Shown here piece after piece: positions 39,386-44,636 of a stretch of 64,000 bases of DNA; positions within the stretch are counted from its first letter, which is position 1; every line of letters starts with the position of its first letter. The position numbers were made by a program, and so were the translations under genes. Location of the stretch: IMG/VR virus record IMGVR_UViG_3300033463_010483, positions 3,523 through 67,522 of that record; one strand, written 5' to 3'. The notes below the pieces were generated by a model. The model was not told where the DNA came from and did not search any database. It saw nothing but the letters and a program-made list of their open reading frames with translations. This DNA is from a virus (Duplodnaviria; Caudoviricetes).

Positions 39386-39690
39386 ACTTCAAACTCCTCG
39401 TTTTGATCTGCCGAAACATTGATGGGCTTAAACAGCGCTTCCGCCGCATTGCGATGTTGGCTGGATACCCGTTCACCTGCCCGGAGCATTACCGGTTGTT
39501 CCGTCTCATAAAGTGCCCGCCAAGCGGCACATTCGGCTTCCGCTTTTGATGGAAACACTTCCGGCGAGCTGGTCCTGCGGCCATCTGATCCAACCTTCTT
39601 CACCTCGTAATACTCAGCCTTCCAGACCAGACGGTATTCACCGATCCAGCCGAAACCCTTGTCAATCGCACGTGCATCTGAGCGGTTCAT
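39382..39690 (-). CDS. Phage hypothetical protein
   Basis: 102 aa, ATGA-coupled to the helicase. Confidence 0.6.
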   Translation of the reverse strand: MNRSDARAIDKGFGWIGEYRLVWKAEYYEVKKVGSDGRRTSSPEVFPSKAEAECAAWRALYETEQPVMLRAGERVSSQHRNAAEALFKPINVSADQNEEFEV

Positions 39691-41144
39691 TCGAAAAATC
39701 CTTCAAAGGATTCTGGCATGTCGGCCGTACTGGATGTGAATGAGGTGTATTCAGCCTCGAAGTTGATCTGCTGACTTTGACCAGGCTCGCCTCTTCGGCG
39801 CTTGTGGTTGATGATCCAAGCTTTTCCGCGTGATGTTTCATAATCACGGATCATCTTGTCTCGCTTGGTCTCCACACCATCGCGGGCTCGTTCTGGCGGA
39901 CAGATTGGGATAAGCTCTTTGTAGAGTGGCTCCGGCCGATAGAGCGAAACCCAGATGTCAAGGTTTTGCTTCACGCTGCCACCACCGTATGCGTCACCCA
40001 TCATTGGGCGAATTGATCCACCAGTACGCCACCGCGCTTTCCAATCGTCATTTCTTTGGATGAGGGTAACAACCGCAACATCGAGCGATTTCCCGATGCC
40101 CTTGAGCCCACGATAAAGAGCATTGATGCGCTCGGCGAAAATATCTTTTGGATTGGGTAGAGCGATCATTTTAGCATGGTCGATGACAACCACGTCGAGC
40201 CCGACTGATTTCTTCATCGCCTCCATTTTGATGCGGATGTCGGATAGTGAGCAATCAGCAAATCCAACGATATCAAACGGGATATCGACAGATTTCATCA
40301 TCTCAGCTTCGATGCGGTCCTTCTCCCGTGAATCCAGATTGAATGCGTCAAGGCGATCGAGACTGATCCGGCTGGCTTGAGCCGCGGCCTGAAGAGCCGC
40401 TTCCTCGTCTGTGATCTCGATAGAGAAAAATGCCGACCGGAACCCTGCCAATGCGGCATGTCTGCATTGTTGGAGAGCGAATGAGGTTTTGCCGCCGCCC
40501 GAGTCCGACATGACACCGATGTGATTGCCGCGCCTGATATCCCCTGCCACACGGGTAATCTCCGGGAGAAACCATGGAATGAGCGATGTGGTTGACAGAG
40601 AAGCCTTAGCAACGCGATCAATGGCTTTGGGGAGCAATACCCCGTACTTGAGTGAACCGGCGCGCTCGTTGCCTTCCTGTGCGATCTTCGTGAGAATATC
40701 CGCAGTGGACGATATTATCTTCTCGGGCGTCATATCGACTGGCATATTTCTCGCCAAGCCGTCTAGGTCATGCGCAGCGGTGATCAGCATCCGGCGTGAC
40801 CAGATTTCAATGATCGCGCGTCCAAAATCATATACACCCACAGTATTCACGGCATTCGCCGCCAAGCTGGCCATGTACTCATTTACGCTCATGTCACCAA
40901 TCATCAGATCGGTTGGCAAGTAACCCTTCATGGTAACGGGATTGGCTGCCCTGCCCTCGGCAATCATCTTGCCAGCAGTGTCGTAAATGGCTTGATGCAA
41001 CTCTTCGGTGAAATGCTGGGGCTTGAGAAAACCGGCAACGCGCCAATATGTTTCATTCGAGATCAGAATGGATCCAAGCAATGCCTGTTCGGCTTCCATC
41101 GCGTCGGGTAGTGCGGGTCGGATGTTAGCTGCCTGATAATTCAT
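39687..41144 (-). CDS. dnaB: Replicative helicase, DnaB-like
   Basis: EAEQALLGSIL N-terminal domain, SGGGKT Walker A, FFSIE, VVVIDH Walker B, GGGSVKQNLD. Confidence 0.88.
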   Translation of the reverse strand: MNYQAANIRPALPDAMEAEQALLGSILISNETYWRVAGFLKPQHFTEELHQAIYDTAGKMIAEGRAANPVTMKGYLPTDLMIGDMSVNEYMASLAANAVNTVGVYDFGRAIIEIWSRRMLITAAHDLDGLARNMPVDMTPEKIISSTADILTKIAQEGNERAGSLKYGVLLPKAIDRVAKASLSTTSLIPWFLPEITRVAGDIRRGNHIGVMSDSGGGKTSFALQQCRHAALAGFRSAFFSIEITDEEAALQAAAQASRISLDRLDAFNLDSREKDRIEAEMMKSVDIPFDIVGFADCSLSDIRIKMEAMKKSVGLDVVVIDHAKMIALPNPKDIFAERINALYRGLKGIGKSLDVAVVTLIQRNDDWKARWRTGGSIRPMMGDAYGGGSVKQNLDIWVSLYRPEPLYKELIPICPPERARDGVETKRDKMIRDYETSRGKAWIINHKRRRGEPGQSQQINFEAEYTSFTSSTADMPESFEGFFE

Positions 41145-41145
41145 A

Positions 41146-42498
41146 CTATTCCCCCATCATCCGAACAAGGCGAGCTGCGCCGGCGGAGCCTCTTGTGGCG
41201 AGGCGAGTTGAGAGAGTGCGGAACGCATACGCTGATTCCAGCGGGACAACTCCGTTGCCGAGCATGCGAAGTCTGTCCACGCGAGCAACGTCCAACCTTG
41301 AGGCCAGCCCATTAGCCACTCGACGAAAAGCGGGTTCAAGCTCCGGCGCTCTTTCGAGGACGTTTCGCCAACTTGTAAGATCGTTGGGTCCGGGTGGGAA
41401 AAGGCCTGTCCCGTTAACGTGAGTGTCTTCTTCGTTTGTTGCGGGTTTGCGTACTGCCACTGTCCCACTTCGTTCGATCGAGGTGTCGCCCATTGATCTG
41501 ACAGTGCAAACGCCTGCCCCTTCAGCAATGGTTCGTCCGATCTCATTCCCGACCGAGCCATCCTGCCGCCTGTCGTGTCTGCTACCGATGGAGTTGACCA
41601 TTGGGAGGCTTGCGCTGGCAGAGGCACCCCTCCCGCTCCGAAACTCTGATTGGGACCGCCCTTCTCCCCGTCCGACGCGCGAGGTGTACTCCATACATCC
41701 GAACTCTTGGAATTCACTGTAGATGTCGAGGGCTGATCGTCGATCGACCAAACTTGCTCCGTCGCGTAATCCAGCCGATCCCCGCGCATCTTGCCGTCCG
41801 ATCGTTCCATCGTCGGGCCGCTCCCCTTCCAATCGTTCGCTGTTGGCGTCGGCCAGGCCGACGGATGAAACTTCTGTACGGCCGTTTGAAGGTTGTCTCC
41901 GCCGTCCCTGCCGTTCGATCCTGGCCCCGTCACCATATTGGCCGTCGGCGTTGGCCTGGCCAACGTTTCGGTCTGAGACTGCGAGGATGAAGAGGCGCTC
42001 TCTCTCATGAGACGCGCCGACTTCTGACGCCGTGAACAATCCTCCCTCAACCGCAAAGCCCAATCGGTGAAGGTCTCGTCTGACCCGCTCAGCGCCGCCC
42101 GATGAGAGCATTCCTCGAACGTTTTCAATGAGGACGAACCAGACACCAGACTGGACGATGATGCGACGTGCCGTTGACCAGAGATCGCGCTCGTCTTCTT
42201 CGGCAAGCCGTTTTCCGGCAAGACTATGCGGCTGGCACGGGATGCCGCCAATGAGGCCGTCCACTGCGCCACGCCATTGGCGGCCGTTAAATGTTCTGGC
42301 ATCGCTCCATATAGGCGCTGAAGCCAAGAGGCACGCCTCCATAGCTGATACCAATTGCGCGACCGCGAAGGCTTCCCTCTCGACCATGCAGACAGTTCGA
42401 GCGCCTTGAACTGCCAGTTCGAGGCCGAGATCGAGACCAGCTCCACCGGTGCAGATGGAGAGAATGTTGAGACTGTCGGAACGAAGAGCCACATTCAT
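41146..42498 (-). CDS. DNA cytosine-5 methyltransferase, catalytic frame
   Basis: Motif I SICTGGAGLD, IV GGIPCQPHS, VI ENV, VIII HERERLF, X RLRMLGNGVVP. Confidence 0.9.
   Translation of the reverse strand: MNVALRSDSLNILSICTGGAGLDLGLELAVQGARTVCMVEREAFAVAQLVSAMEACLLASAPIWSDARTFNGRQWRGAVDGLIGGIPCQPHSLAGKRLAEEDERDLWSTARRIIVQSGVWFVLIENVRGMLSSGGAERVRRDLHRLGFAVEGGLFTASEVGASHERERLFILAVSDRNVGQANADGQYGDGARIERQGRRRQPSNGRTEVSSVGLADANSERLEGERPDDGTIGRQDARGSAGLRDGASLVDRRSALDIYSEFQEFGCMEYTSRVGRGEGRSQSEFRSGRGASASASLPMVNSIGSRHDRRQDGSVGNEIGRTIAEGAGVCTVRSMGDTSIERSGTVAVRKPATNEEDTHVNGTGLFPPGPNDLTSWRNVLERAPELEPAFRRVANGLASRLDVARVDRLRMLGNGVVPLESAYAFRTLSTRLATRGSAGAARLVRMMGE
41157..42494 (-). CDS. Alternative-frame polypeptide nested in the C5-MTase gene (WxTP repeats plus motif-IX-like segment)
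   Basis: 445 codons open on the same strand; RPTP/WPTP/WSTP/WSTP/WATP repeats; SLNPLFVEWLMGWPQGWT; ATG directly follows the upstream TGA. Confidence 0.72.
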   Translation of the reverse strand: MWLFVPTVSTFSPSAPVELVSISASNWQFKALELSAWSRGKPSRSRNWYQLWRRASWLQRLYGAMPEHLTAANGVAQWTASLAASRASRIVLPENGLPKKTSAISGQRHVASSSSLVSGSSSLKTFEECSHRAALSGSDETFTDWALRLREDCSRRQKSARLMRESASSSSQSQTETLARPTPTANMVTGPGSNGRDGGDNLQTAVQKFHPSAWPTPTANDWKGSGPTMERSDGKMRGDRLDYATEQVWSIDDQPSTSTVNSKSSDVWSTPRASDGEKGGPNQSFGAGGVPLPAQASQWSTPSVADTTGGRMARSGMRSDEPLLKGQAFALSDQWATPRSNEVGQWQYANPQQTKKTLTLTGQAFSHPDPTILQVGETSSKERRSLNPLFVEWLMGWPQGWTLLAWTDFACSATELSRWNQRMRSALSQLASPQEAPPAQLALFG

Positions 42499-43064
42499 GC
42501 CGCCCTCATCTTCATCATCTTCACGACATCGAGCCCAGACCCGGCAAAGGCGATTCCCACCGCTTCACCTTGATCGTCGTTGGTCACTTTGATTTTCAAT
42601 TGGGTGCAGCGATCACGCGCTGCTTTCTTCCAGTCCTTTCGCTCCCATCCCTTATGAGTGCCGAAGCCAAGGAAGGCTTTGCGCCAACTCACAGAAGCGA
42701 TTGTCTCGAATGGGATGTTGTATGCCCCAATGATCGCCGAAGCTGCTCCGACGAGCTGATTCGAGGATATAACCGCATTGATGCCGGAGCCCTTGGCTTC
42801 GACGGTCTGTTCCTCACCCATGAACTTCACAGTGCGCTTTCCGCCAATCGGCTGGGCGCGCATCGGCCGCTCAATGAGAACGAAATCTGGACGGTCAGAC
42901 TTGATGAGTTTGACCAATGCCTTGCCGAGAAAAGCTGACTTGTCCTCGAACTCCTCACCCTCGCATTGGATGTGTCCGACACGAATGGCGGACAGGGAAG
43001 CTTTGTCATCGTAGTAGGCCCAGCCGGTGCGGGAAGCGATATCTAAACCGAGGATCACAGTCAT
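42495..43064 (-). CDS. RuvC-like Holliday junction resolvase
   Basis: ILGLDIASRTGWA, VLIERP, NDDQGEAVGIA. Confidence 0.75.
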   Translation of the reverse strand: MTVILGLDIASRTGWAYYDDKASLSAIRVGHIQCEGEEFEDKSAFLGKALVKLIKSDRPDFVLIERPMRAQPIGGKRTVKFMGEEQTVEAKGSGINAVISSNQLVGAASAIIGAYNIPFETIASVSWRKAFLGFGTHKGWERKDWKKAARDRCTQLKIKVTNDDQGEAVGIAFAGSGLDVVKMMKMRAA

Positions 43065-43369
43065 CGCCCGTAACCCTCCGGCTGAACCGAATAGAGTTCC
43101 GCACCATCTTCTGACCGGACAATCTTCAATCCCTTGCGGGCAAGACTGATGTTGGCGCGGATAATCGCATTGTGAAATTCAGCACCGAACGGATCGACCT
43201 TCATGCTCTCAAACCCGCATTTGAAGATGATGCGATCACGCGCAAACCAGCCGCCCCGTTTGGATTTCAGGAAGTCGATCAGGCCATTGCGCAGTTTAAG
43301 CTGGCGCTCTGTGAGTGGATGAGAATCCGGGTGATTTCGGGCGAGGTTCTTCATTCTGCAGCCTCCCAC
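43061..43369 (-). CDS. Hypothetical (possibly winged-helix) protein
   Basis: 102 aa, ATGA-coupled. Confidence 0.6.
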   Translation of the reverse strand: MGGCRMKNLARNHPDSHPLTERQLKLRNGLIDFLKSKRGGWFARDRIIFKCGFESMKVDPFGAEFHNAIIRANISLARKGLKIVRSEDGAELYSVQPEGYGR

Positions 43370-43950
43370 GACAAACGATGAAGTTCAGTTGGGCCGACAT
43401 ATCCGCGCTGCCAGACAAACCAAGCGAAAGCCATGGTGCTGGTGGTTTTGTTACCTTCCCAGCCGTCGCGATGCATCATCGGAAGTCGATTGCGGAATAC
43501 GTGAACGCGGGCGAGTGGAGCATTATCAATGATTGATCGGCGCTTCTCGCTTTCCAGAAAATTCAAACGCATGAGCATCGCGACGTAAGGCACCATATCA
43601 AGGGCGCGCTCTACGAATTCCAATGCGTTCTTAAACGGGGGGTTGGTGACGATACCTTGCTGTCCGGTTGCATAGCTTTCAGCCAAGCCGGGAATAAGAA
43701 AATCCACACCAAAAGCATCCTGATCTGGGCTATCGTAATCAACCAGATCGGTCGCAAGGACGTCGAAATCTGCTGACCGAAGTTCTCGAACGATTGATCC
43801 CGGTCCGCATGCAGGCTCCCAAAGACGCAATGGGAGTGTTTCAACACGCATCAGGGCGTGTACGGCCTCTGGCGGCGTCTCATACAAATCGTTCTTGCGA
43901 TTAGCGAGAAGATCCCGTGTATTGCCGGCGGTTGTCGCGAGGATTGACAT
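43351..43950 (-). CDS. SAM-dependent amino-type (probably m6A) DNA methyltransferase
   Basis: DLYETP, WEPACGPGSI motif I, TNPPF motif IV. Confidence 0.82.
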   Translation of the reverse strand: MSILATTAGNTRDLLANRKNDLYETPPEAVHALMRVETLPLRLWEPACGPGSIVRELRSADFDVLATDLVDYDSPDQDAFGVDFLIPGLAESYATGQQGIVTNPPFKNALEFVERALDMVPYVAMLMRLNFLESEKRRSIIDNAPLARVHVFRNRLPMMHRDGWEGNKTTSTMAFAWFVWQRGYVGPTELHRLSWEAAE

Positions 43951-44121
43951 CTATCGGCACCTCGCGACCTGAACAGGGTTTACGGCGCGTGGAAGTGCGT
44001 CGGCGGGCTCGACATGACACTGAACGAAGGCCAGCAGAAGCACTGCGACCGCAATCAGTGAGTACATGAAGACATAAGTGCCTGTGTCGGATTGGTTGTT
44101 GTCATTGTCTGGAGGGGTCAT
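43951..44121 (-). CDS. Small single-TM protein (56 aa)
   Basis: Hand translation MTPPDND...YVFMYSLIAVAVLLLAFV...; coupled to both neighbours. Confidence 0.55.
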   Translation of the reverse strand: MTPPDNDNNQSDTGTYVFMYSLIAVAVLLLAFVQCHVEPADALPRAVNPVQVARCR

Positions 44122-44636
44122 GCCACCCTCCTCGCAATATGCTCAGCCTTGGCTTTTGCCCGAAGCGTTTCAGTGCGCGGTTGGAAGACAAGTTTGCGAT
44201 GATGCGGGCACCAGGATTGACCTTCGTCTGTTTCTTTGCCGCAGAAGCGATATTCCCCGCCCTGCGCTGGACTATCGACCTCATATCGGCACTGTCTGAC
44301 ACCGCATTCGTGGATTAGAAGACGAAGGCAATCAGCCTCATATTCCTTGGTCGTGATTGCTGGCTTGGGTGCTTCAAACAATGGATCGAGCGCACGATTG
44401 GCTTTCTTGACAGCCAGATTTGTTGAATTGAATGTGTGCTTGGTGATTTTGCCGACGAGCGCTGCCGAAGTCTTGGACGTCGTTTTCATGTTCAGCCGGA
44501 ACATCTTGCCAAGAACGGCGCTTCGGGTTGTGCCAAGCTCACGAGCGATGACTGAACCGGACTGACCGTCGAGCACCATCGTCTTCATGCGCGCTACCGC
44601 TTCATCGGTCCATTGGAAGGGATTGTGCATGTTCAT
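44118..44636 (-). CDS. gcrA: GcrA-family regulator
   Basis: WTDEAV..MK.M...G.S...IARELG.TRSAVLGK..RL; C-terminal C..RY...FCG..T....SWC.HH. Confidence 0.85.
   Translation of the reverse strand: MNMHNPFQWTDEAVARMKTMVLDGQSGSVIARELGTTRSAVLGKMFRLNMKTTSKTSAALVGKITKHTFNSTNLAVKKANRALDPLFEAPKPAITTKEYEADCLRLLIHECGVRQCRYEVDSPAQGGEYRFCGKETDEGQSWCPHHRKLVFQPRTETLRAKAKAEHIARRVA

What the first reader, a model, noticed from the sequence alone, without database searches (positions are those of the whole stretch)
41146..42498. Fully dual-coding cytosine methyltransferase locus: two ~445-aa proteins from the same 1.35 kb
Seen: frame A (450 aa) has C5-MTase motifs I, IV, VI, VIII and X but no clear motif IX. 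Frame B (445 aa, same strand) is open throughout, with five WxTP-type repeats and a motif-IX-like LNPLFVEWLMGWPQGWT. The upstream stop in GC-ATG-A-ATG-TGG couples to both starts (ATGA overlap and TGA-ATG), and both frames end within 13 bp of the dnaB ATG. Known: M.EcoHK31I is a two-polypeptide C5-MTase whose motif-IX subunit is encoded in an alternative frame. Inference: a heterodimeric MTase with end-to-end overprinting, where expandable WxTP repeats may be modular target-recognition or interaction units.
Basis: partly seen in the sequence, partly recalled or inferred. Interest (0 to 1): 0.85.

Follow-up and report, generated by a model that had tools for sequence, protein, structure and literature searches.

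The report
Cytosine methyltransferase gene read in two frames
One 1.35-kb prophage gene is kept open in two overlapping reading frames that most likely give the catalytic chain and the DNA-recognition chain of a single DNA cytosine methyltransferase; one E. coli enzyme is known to work this way, and here the layout is end to end and shared by many phages.

Summary
On the minus strand, frame A (41146-42498, 450 aa) and frame B (41157-42494, 445 aa) share 1.35 kb, with start codons 4 nt apart behind one ribosome-binding site.

- **Frame A:** it carries C5-methyltransferase motifs I-VIII and X, joined by about 190 residues that are disordered and not conserved.
- **Frame B:** it has no Pfam or PDB relative. 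It carries five WxTP modules and a motif-IX-like segment.
- **Conservation:** of 69 complete related loci fetched with A, 67 keep both frames open, and the third frame has 3-22 stops. Synonymous sites show selection on both proteins at the two ends, and on B alone in the middle.
- **Binding:** a complex model supports A-B binding (score 0.91, best control 0.00). It places B's N-terminus on the catalytic domain.
- **Modules:** WxTP modules fall into discrete types, never twice in one protein, in about 85 combinations among 96 proteins.

My reading is a two-chain enzyme of the M.EcoHK31I kind, with the variable recognition array moved to the second chain. No experiment supports translation or activity.

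This scan has reported the same layout on other DNA in at least 38 genomes. I class it as a new variant of a known kind.

The parts
41146..42498 (-). Frame A ORF, 450 aa: the catalytic chain. It has motifs I-VIII, a disordered linker and motif X.
   Evidence: One search lists the ORF. Pfam PF00145 covers residues 11-176. The A profile hits M.HaeIII and M.HhaI residues 1-165. AF2 pLDDT is 84-97 for residues 1-180 and 73-97 for 411-450. Foldseek finds the M.HaeIII/M.HhaI large domain.
41157..42494 (-). Frame B ORF, 445 aa: the proposed recognition chain. It has an N-terminal clasp, five WxTP modules and a motif-IX-like segment.
   Evidence: One search lists the ORF. It has no Pfam, NCBIfam or PDB relative, but matches phrog_27243 and phrog_1008. 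A sequence search found 904 homologues. A profile search found 25,519 cluster representatives at E <= 1e-3.
42492..42507 (-). Shared initiation region. It holds the GAGGG ribosome-binding site (42503-42507), A's ATG (42496-42498), the ruvC-like stop TGA (42495-42497) and B's ATG (42492-42494).
   Evidence: Read directly from the sequence. NTG-A-ATG-TGG is found in 31 of 53 non-redundant loci, with a purine-rich site upstream. A's start there is GTG 21 times, ATG 7 and TTG 3; B's start is ATG in 30 of the 31.
41959..42498 (-). Zone 1: A residues 1-180 (motifs I-VIII) overlapping B's N-terminal 1-179. Both are under selection.
   Evidence: The same-codon fraction at identical A residues is 0.60, against 0.41-0.46 in flanking ruvC and dnaB. 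Codon homozygosity is 0.62 against 0.36 expected. A's R41 is always AGG, which is 6% of Arg codons overall. In the complex model B 1-6, 32-40, 55-89 and 137-160 touch A.
41355..41957 (-). Zone 2: B residues 180-380, five WxTP modules of types '.BACD', overlapping A's linker (A 181-370).
   Evidence: Modules are defined. B's synonymous sites sit at baseline here, 0.45 and 0.40 against 0.38 expected. So A's linker is constrained only to avoid stops, which it does in 47 of 48 loci. A residues 187-363 have pLDDT below 50 and no secondary structure.
41289..41348 (-). B residues 383-402: the motif-IX-like segment (RR-LNPLFVEWLMGWPxGWT).
   Evidence: These columns are invariant or nearly invariant in 94 sequences. 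In the complex model they touch A 364-371 and 386-420.
41242..41262 (-). A residues 413-419: motif X (LGNGVVP), downstream of B's motif IX on the DNA.
   Evidence: These columns are invariant or nearly invariant in 47 sequences. The same-codon fraction in A's C-terminal zone is 0.77.
42495..43064 (-). Upstream RuvC-like resolvase gene, whose stop codon sits inside the dual start.
   Evidence: phrog_159 and phrog_1770. The same order ruvC, methyltransferase, dnaB is seen in Synechococcus phage Yong-M2-251, there with one extra gene between the methyltransferase and dnaB.
39687..41144 (-). Downstream DnaB-like helicase gene, starting 1 nt after A's stop.
   Evidence: phrog_19.

Best explanation
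This is a prophage C5 DNA cytosine methyltransferase made of two chains translated from the same 1.35 kb in two frames.

**How it is made.** Ribosomes load at one ribosome-binding site and choose between two start codons 4 nt apart.

- **Chain A:** the AdoMet-binding and catalytic large domain. It holds motifs I-VIII at its N-terminus and the motif X helix at its C-terminus, tied by a roughly 190-residue disordered linker. That linker is simply the A-frame reading of B's recognition region.
- **Chain B:** it supplies what A lacks, namely the variable DNA-recognition region (five WxTP modules) and motif IX. Its N-terminal 160 or so residues, written over A's catalytic motifs, clasp the catalytic domain.

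**Shown here:**
- the layout and its conservation;
- selection on both frames;
- the shared start site;
- the modular make-up of B.

**Inferred, not shown:**
- that both chains are translated;
- that they bind each other;
- that only the pair methylates DNA, and which sites it methylates.
For: **Conservation of the layout**
- A's N- and C-terminal parts always share one frame. B's two parts always lie in the frame one base further on.
- In 67 of 69 complete loci fetched with A as query, B is open from about 4 nt after A's start to about 17 nt before A's stop. The third frame has 3-22 stops.
- The same layout is seen in Synechococcus phage Yong-M2-251, Burkholderia phage phi1026b and E. coli phage K1ind2. 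In K1ind2 both ORFs are annotated.

**Selection**
- Stops are avoided against synonymous shuffles.
- The fraction of identical codons at identical residues is 0.60 (A N-terminus), 0.77 (A C-terminus) and 0.76 (B C-terminus). In flanking ruvC and dnaB it is 0.41-0.46, and in B's middle 0.45.
- Rare codons are fixed where B has invariant residues.
- Frame B is more conserved than the third frame in 46 of 46 comparisons.

**Start site**
- NTG-A-ATG-TGG behind a purine-rich site is found in 31 of 53 loci.

**A alone is incomplete**
- Residues 187-363 have pLDDT below 50.
- TIGR00675 scores 59.6 bits against a cut-off of 100.65.

**Complex model**
- The score is 0.91 in each of three runs, and the best of 3 controls is 0.00.
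- That mark was reached by 58 of 80 solved complexes and by 2 of 110 mismatched pairs. These counts hold only roughly here, because my own alignments were used.
- The runs agree in at least 90% of contacts, and the partner's pLDDT is at least 68.
- Halves of a split enzyme can pass from likeness to solved structures such as M.HhaI. That caveat applies to the motif IX/X contacts. It applies less to B's N-terminus, which has no PDB relative.

**Precedent**
- M.EcoHK31I needs two chains, and the second lies in another frame of the first chain's gene (PMC2836561, PMC3404938).
Against: - There is no direct evidence of translation of either frame, of binding or of methylation. Everything here is comparative or predicted.
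- B's N-terminal zone is only moderately constrained. Its identity to the window is 0.52 against 0.46 for the third frame.
- B folded alone gives a poor model, with mean pLDDT 57.
- The loci are related to one another, so counts of loci overstate the number of independent events.
- The motif-IX assignment rests on a motif-level likeness, not on a profile match.
- A 446-aa chimera in the protein database (A 1-119 joined to B 121-445) shows that one-base variants of this gene exist, or are produced by sequencing.
Confidence: 0.8

Rival explanations
1. A single canonical polypeptide is made by two programmed ribosomal frameshifts. The ribosome shifts +1 after motif VIII into frame B, then -1 after motif IX back into frame A. 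The full-length ORFs would then be incidental.
For: The motifs are colinear on the DNA: I-VIII (frame A), then modules and motif IX (frame B), then motif X (frame A). This is the order of a one-chain enzyme. Actinophage relatives carry modules, motif IX and motif X in one frame.
Against: - This model needs neither B's first 180 codons nor A's middle 190 codons to be open, yet both are open in 47-49 of 48-53 lineages.
- B's ATG and the shared ribosome-binding site are conserved.
- A's synonymous sites are constrained over B's N-terminus.
- No canonical -1 slippery heptamer lies between motif IX and B's stop in any of 44 loci. The window gene has no homopolymer longer than 5.
Confidence: 0.06
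2. B is a real protein, but it works on its own, for example as a DNA-binding or anti-restriction factor. It is not a subunit of the methyltransferase.
For: B has no Pfam, NCBIfam or PDB relative. Sources name its homologues 'hypothetical protein'. In phi1026b the B frame runs on into ParB.
Against: - A lacks motif IX and a folded recognition region, which B-like sequences supply in frame in actinophage split enzymes.
- B's motif-IX-like segment lies on the DNA exactly between motif VIII and motif X.
- The complex model supports binding (score 0.91, best control 0.00).
- B is never found away from A in the loci fetched.
Confidence: 0.08
3. Frame B, or A's linker, is an untranslated passenger kept open by base composition, or the locus is a decaying gene.
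For: The window has 55% G+C, which lowers the frequency of stops. Gene callers usually report only one of the two frames.
Against: - The third frame of the same DNA has 3-22 stops.
- Shuffles that keep protein and codon pool give about 2.5 stops per zone.
- B-specific residues fix rare A codons.
- The layout holds in 67 of 69 loci down to about 40% protein identity.
Confidence: 0.03

Closest known systems
M.EcoHK31I (E. coli HK31, YGGCCR; Lee, Kam and Shaw 1995, as described in PMC2836561 and PMC3404938)
   Same: - It is a C5 methyltransferase that needs two polypeptides.
- The second chain is encoded in another frame of the first chain's gene.
[quoted passage not shown]
   Different: - There the small chain is nested inside the gene. 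Here the two frames are co-extensive (450 and 445 aa), with starts 4 nt apart.
- There the predicted recognition domain is in the large chain. Here the variable region lies in the second chain, and the large chain has a disordered linker in its place.
- Homology to M.EcoHK31I could not be tested, because no tool gave me its sequence.
M.AquI-type sequentially split C5 methyltransferases, and the actinophage pairs Colucci gp82/gp83 and Kampy gp78/gp77
   Same: - They are two chains, with motifs I-VIII in the first.
- The actinophage second chains carry the same kind of xLPTP/WxTP modules and the LNPxFxEWMMG segment.
- Module types A and C of this family occur in Colucci gp83.
   Different: - Their genes lie one after the other with a short overlap of 23-35 nt.
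- Motif X is in the second chain. In the window, motif X has returned to the first chain's frame, which forces that frame to stay open across the whole recognition region.
Multispecific C5 methyltransferases of Bacillus phages (M.SPRI, M.Phi3TI, M.H2I; Trautner and co-workers, cited from the reference list of PMC8936443)
   Same: - Several short recognition modules stand in tandem between motifs VIII and IX.
- The modules keep a common relative order. Here 356 ordered pairs are consistent and 18 are not.
- The setting is a phage.
   Different: - Those enzymes are single chains.
- No sequence likeness between their modules and the WxTP units was tested.
- That each WxTP module reads its own site is not shown.

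Membership tests
C5 DNA cytosine methyltransferase (Pfam PF00145, TIGR00675) | AdoMet-binding motif I, catalytic Pro-Cys of motif IV, ENV of motif VI and RxR of motif VIII, in that order | tested here: met
   Found in frame A. PF00145 scores 79.6 bits over residues 11-176. G18, G21, P87, C88, Q89, R166 and R168 are invariant and E125-N126-V127 nearly so. The A profile matches M.HaeIII residues 1-165 at E 9e-24. Foldseek finds the M.HaeIII/M.HhaI large domain.
C5 DNA cytosine methyltransferase (Pfam PF00145, TIGR00675) | Motif X (GNxVxxP) closing the large domain | tested here: met
   Frame A has L413-G-N-G-V-V-P419, invariant or nearly so. The helix at 404-435 has pLDDT 73-97.
C5 DNA cytosine methyltransferase (Pfam PF00145, TIGR00675) | Recognition domain and motif IX in the same chain, between motifs VIII and X | tested here: not met
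   A residues 187-363 are disordered and unconserved. TIGR00675 scores 59.6 bits against a cut-off of 100.65. The motif-IX-like segment lies in frame B.
M.EcoHK31I-type two-chain enzyme with the second chain in another frame | Second ORF on the same strand, in another frame of the same DNA, conserved | tested here: met
M.EcoHK31I-type two-chain enzyme with the second chain in another frame | Large chain with motifs I-VIII and X; second chain with motif IX | tested here: met
   The motif IX assignment rests on motif-level likeness only.
M.EcoHK31I-type two-chain enzyme with the second chain in another frame | Recognition domain in the large chain (as stated in PMC3404938) | tested here: not met
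   The variable, module-bearing region is in B. A's middle is a linker.
M.EcoHK31I-type two-chain enzyme with the second chain in another frame | Both chains required for methylation in vitro | not testable with these tools
   This needs expression and an activity assay. The complex model only supports binding.
M.EcoHK31I-type two-chain enzyme with the second chain in another frame | Sequence homology to M.EcoHK31I alpha and beta | not tested
   No tool gave the sequence, and the 1995 paper is not held.
Multispecific phage C5 methyltransferases | Several distinct recognition modules in tandem | tested here: inconclusive
   The window's B has five units of different types. In all, 333 units from 96 proteins fall into discrete types, no type occurs twice in one protein, and there are about 85 architectures. 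Whether the units are recognition domains is not shown.
Multispecific phage C5 methyltransferases | Each module confers one target sequence | not testable with these tools
   This needs methylome reads of module-deletion variants.

The most novel reading that the evidence does not exclude
B is a plug-in specificity subunit. Each WxTP unit would be an independent recognition module, so this prophage enzyme would methylate up to five different sequences. Phages would re-programme their protection against host restriction by swapping modules.

The two-frame design would make this cheap. The catalytic chain reads the module region only as a sequence-free linker, so modules can be gained, lost or exchanged without harming catalysis, provided no stop codon arises in frame A.
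Probability: 0.4. Interest if true: 0.85.

Novelty: new variant of a known kind. Interest (0 to 1): 0.66.

Why it matters
- **Length of the overlap.** Same-strand overlaps of more than a kilobase with selection on both proteins are very rare in bacteria and phages. This one is widespread: a profile of B finds 2,733 cluster representatives at E <= 1e-30.
- **Annotation gap.** The second protein is mostly unnamed or not annotated, so many phage 'Dcm' genes in databases are described as half an enzyme.
- **A test case.** The locus offers a natural system for how two proteins share codons. It has three zones with different balances of constraint, and one ribosome-binding site serves two start codons.
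- **If the modules prove to be separate recognition domains.** The family would then be a large, unexplored source of cytosine methylation specificities. It would also be a route by which phages evade restriction.

Tried and rejected
- **Family and structure searches with B.** Pfam and NCBIfam give nothing. PDB sequence searches with B alone and with a 94-sequence profile give nothing up to E = 10.
- **Fold search with the B model.** No match rises above Z 3.2, and the matches are single helices. The model is of low confidence, so this says nothing about B's fold.
- **ESM Atlas.** Only unnamed, mostly viral clusters come back.
- **Frameshift signals.** No canonical -1 heptamer occurs after motif IX in 44 loci. 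The window gene has no long homopolymer or simple repeat, so the repeat-switch reading reported for other genomes in this scan does not apply here.
- **Literature.** Searches for a published description of the end-to-end layout found only the M.EcoHK31I and M.AquI precedents. 'Mte8-like' appears only as an annotation label. The held library is incomplete, so this does not show that no description exists. The 1995 M.EcoHK31I paper is not held.

Full report
**Setting.** The window is part of a 67.5-kb provirus record rated complete. It carries terminase, head protease and tail genes. The finding lies in the replication module, all on the minus strand. In order of transcription the genes are:
- a GcrA-like gene;
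- a small DNA methyltransferase (phrog_799);
- a RuvC-like resolvase (42495-43064);
- the locus in question;
- a DnaB-like helicase (39687-41144).

Named relatives come from Rhizobiales: Sinorhizobium, Phyllobacterium, Rhizobium and Mesorhizobium.

Frame A (41146-42498, 450 aa) and frame B (41157-42494, 445 aa) are both open, with B one base downstream of A's frame.
- The start region reads GAGGG-CGGC-ATG-A-ATG-TGG. The resolvase stop TGA overlaps A's ATG and abuts B's ATG.
- A ends 1 nt before the dnaB ATG, and B ends 12 nt before it.
- A has motifs I, IV, VI, VIII and X. Pfam PF00145 covers only residues 11-176, and TIGR00675 stays below its cut-off.
- B has no Pfam, NCBIfam or PDB relative. 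It does match two PHROG families, one unnamed and one called DNA methyltransferase.

**The layout is conserved far beyond this prophage.**
- A tblastn search of phage records placed both frames on the same DNA in Synechococcus phage Yong-M2-251 and Burkholderia phage phi1026b. It also placed B's module region in E. coli Kagunavirus phages.
- Reading those loci shows the same pair of ORFs. In K1ind2 both are annotated, the second as 'Mte8-like'/DNA methyltransferase.
- With A as the only query I fetched 71 further loci. In all of them A's N- and C-terminal parts share one frame, and B's two parts lie in the frame one base on.
- Two loci are cut by contig ends. Of the 69 complete ones, 67 keep B open from about 4 nt after A's start to about 17 nt before A's stop. 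The third frame has 3-22 stops.
- The exceptions are L029, where B stops after 144 aa, and L068, where both frames shift mid-gene.
- A profile of B finds 25,519 cluster representatives at E <= 1e-3 among 1.84 billion, and 2,733 at E <= 1e-30. Nearly all named ones are 'hypothetical protein'.

**Selection divides the gene into three zones.**

| Zone | A residues | What A encodes | What B encodes | Constraint |
|---|---|---|---|---|
| 1 | 1-180 | motifs I-VIII | N-terminus | both frames, B weaker |
| 2 | 181-370 | linker | five WxTP modules | B only; A must merely avoid stops |
| 3 | last ~65 codons | motif X | motif-IX-like segment | both frames, strong |

- **Shuffle test.** Shuffling synonymous codons keeps the protein and the codon pool, so it is a conservative null. 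It predicts about 2.5 stops in the other frame per zone. None is seen in 49 of 53 loci in zone 1 (B frame) and in 47 of 48 loci in zone 2 (A frame).
- **Zone 1.** At residues identical to the window, the fraction with the identical codon is 0.41-0.46 in the flanking resolvase and helicase genes, and 0.60 in A here. Codon homozygosity at conserved columns is 0.62 against 0.36 expected. Rare codons are fixed where B has invariant residues: A's R41 is always AGG, which is 6% of Arg codons. Frame B beats the third frame in 46 of 46 comparisons, by a modest margin of 0.52 to 0.46.
- **Zone 2.** B's synonymous sites are at baseline, 0.45 and 0.40 against 0.38 expected. A's reading of this stretch is therefore free apart from avoiding stops.
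- **Zone 3.** Both frames are strongly constrained, at 0.77 and 0.76.

**One initiation region serves both frames.** NTG-A-ATG-TGG behind a purine-rich site occurs in 31 of 53 non-redundant loci. A's start there is usually the weaker GTG (21), and B's is ATG in 30 of the 31. I infer that ribosomes partition between the two starts. This is not shown.

**Structure models.**
- *A alone.* The model is confident for residues 1-180 and 411-450 (pLDDT 84-97 and 73-97). It has no structure at 187-363. Its fold matches the large domain of M.HaeIII and M.HhaI.
- *B alone.* The model is poor, with mean pLDDT 57, but has confident helices at 21-66, 141-160 and 381-445.
- *The complex.* The model supports binding. 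The score is 0.91 in three runs, and the best of 3 controls is 0.00. That mark was reached by 58 of 80 solved complexes and by 2 of 110 mismatched pairs, counts that hold only roughly with my own alignments. The runs agree in at least 90% of contacts, and the partner's pLDDT is at least 68.
- *A caveat on the complex.* A pass for halves of a split enzyme may come from likeness to solved one-chain methyltransferases. That applies to the contacts between B 383-435 and A 364-436.
- *B's N-terminus.* The contacts of B 1-6, 32-40, 55-89 and 137-160 with A 8-79 and 131-169 have no solved counterpart that I could find by sequence. They match the synonymous-site constraint of zone 1. They also give a reason why B starts at A's start.

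**Origin.**
- Actinophage relatives (Colucci gp82/gp83, Kampy gp78/gp77) are split into consecutive genes. The second chain carries xLPTP modules, the LNPxFxEWMMG segment and motif X in one frame.
- The window keeps the same order on the DNA, but motif X is back in the first chain's frame.
- I infer a frame-split of a colinear gene. Overprinting added only B's N-terminus and A's linker.

**The WxTP units are modules.**
- I extracted 333 units from 96 B-type proteins. They cluster into discrete types, the largest found in 48, 44, 33 and 27 proteins.
- No type occurs twice in a protein, and about 85 different architectures occur.
- The relative order of types is mostly kept: 356 ordered pairs are consistent and 18 are not.
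- Unit number tracks B's length (r = 0.79; 0 to 9 units).
- The window's array is '.BACD'. Its closest catalytic relatives (88% identity in zone 1) carry 'WAK' and 'MSA.'.
- Types recur in very distant phages: B in K1ind2, A and F in phi1026b, A and C in Colucci, and D in the Synechococcus phage.
- This resembles the tandem recognition domains of multispecific Bacillus phage enzymes. Whether each unit reads its own site is untested.

**Rivals.**
- *Two-frameshift single chain.* It is disfavoured by the open, constrained 'unused' parts of both frames, by the conserved B start and by the absence of slippery sites or repeats.
- *Passenger ORF.* It is excluded by the third-frame contrast and the fixed rare codons.
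- *B with a role independent of A.* It remains possible, but it leaves A without motif IX or a recognition region.

**Standing.**
- The nearest published case is M.EcoHK31I (PMC2836561, PMC3404938).
- The window differs from it in three ways: the overlap is co-extensive, the starts are 4 nt apart behind one ribosome-binding site, and the variable region lies in the second chain.
- Earlier notes of this scan report the same layout on other DNA in at least 38 genomes, and a five-module array in another phage. My tests on this window agree with them.
- No experiment supports translation, binding or activity.

Noticed in passing
L002:1412-3532 (Burkholderia phage phi1026b): Frame B of the phi1026b methyltransferase gene has no stop before the end of the annotated ParB-like gene. 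It could therefore be made as a 706-aa fusion of the recognition chain with ParB.
   Followed up: no
window about 42139, minus strand (A codon 120): The protein database holds a 446-aa chimera, P0001, made of A 1-119 joined to B 121-445. It needs the loss of one G in GTCTGGTTC. It may be a sequencing error or a natural one-base variant of this prophage gene.
   Followed up: partly
window 43351-43950 and 44118-44636, minus strand: A small DNA methyltransferase (phrog_799, no NCBIfam match) and a GcrA-like protein (NF050816, 73.9 bits, below its cut-off) lie just upstream. The prophage therefore carries a second methyltransferase and a homologue of a methylation-reading cell-cycle factor of alphaproteobacteria.
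   Followed up: no
L029:2505-2939; L068:499-1939; L069:2501-3913: These are the rare broken or altered copies. In L029, B stops after 144 aa. In L068, both frames shift by one base in mid-gene. In L069, A runs 347 nt past B's stop.
   Followed up: no
PDB 3g7u (prophage CP-933R methyltransferase, E. coli): This is the only solved chain that aligns with the A profile over nearly its whole length (profile positions 10-337 to chain residues 3-368). Whether its gene also carries a second frame was not checked.
   Followed up: no
L075:315-2355 and L076:1132-2227: In actinophages Colucci and Kampy the two methyltransferase genes overlap by only 23-35 nt. The second ORF is open well upstream of its annotated start (Colucci from 868, Kampy from 1493). 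This may be an intermediate stage of the overlap.
   Followed up: partly
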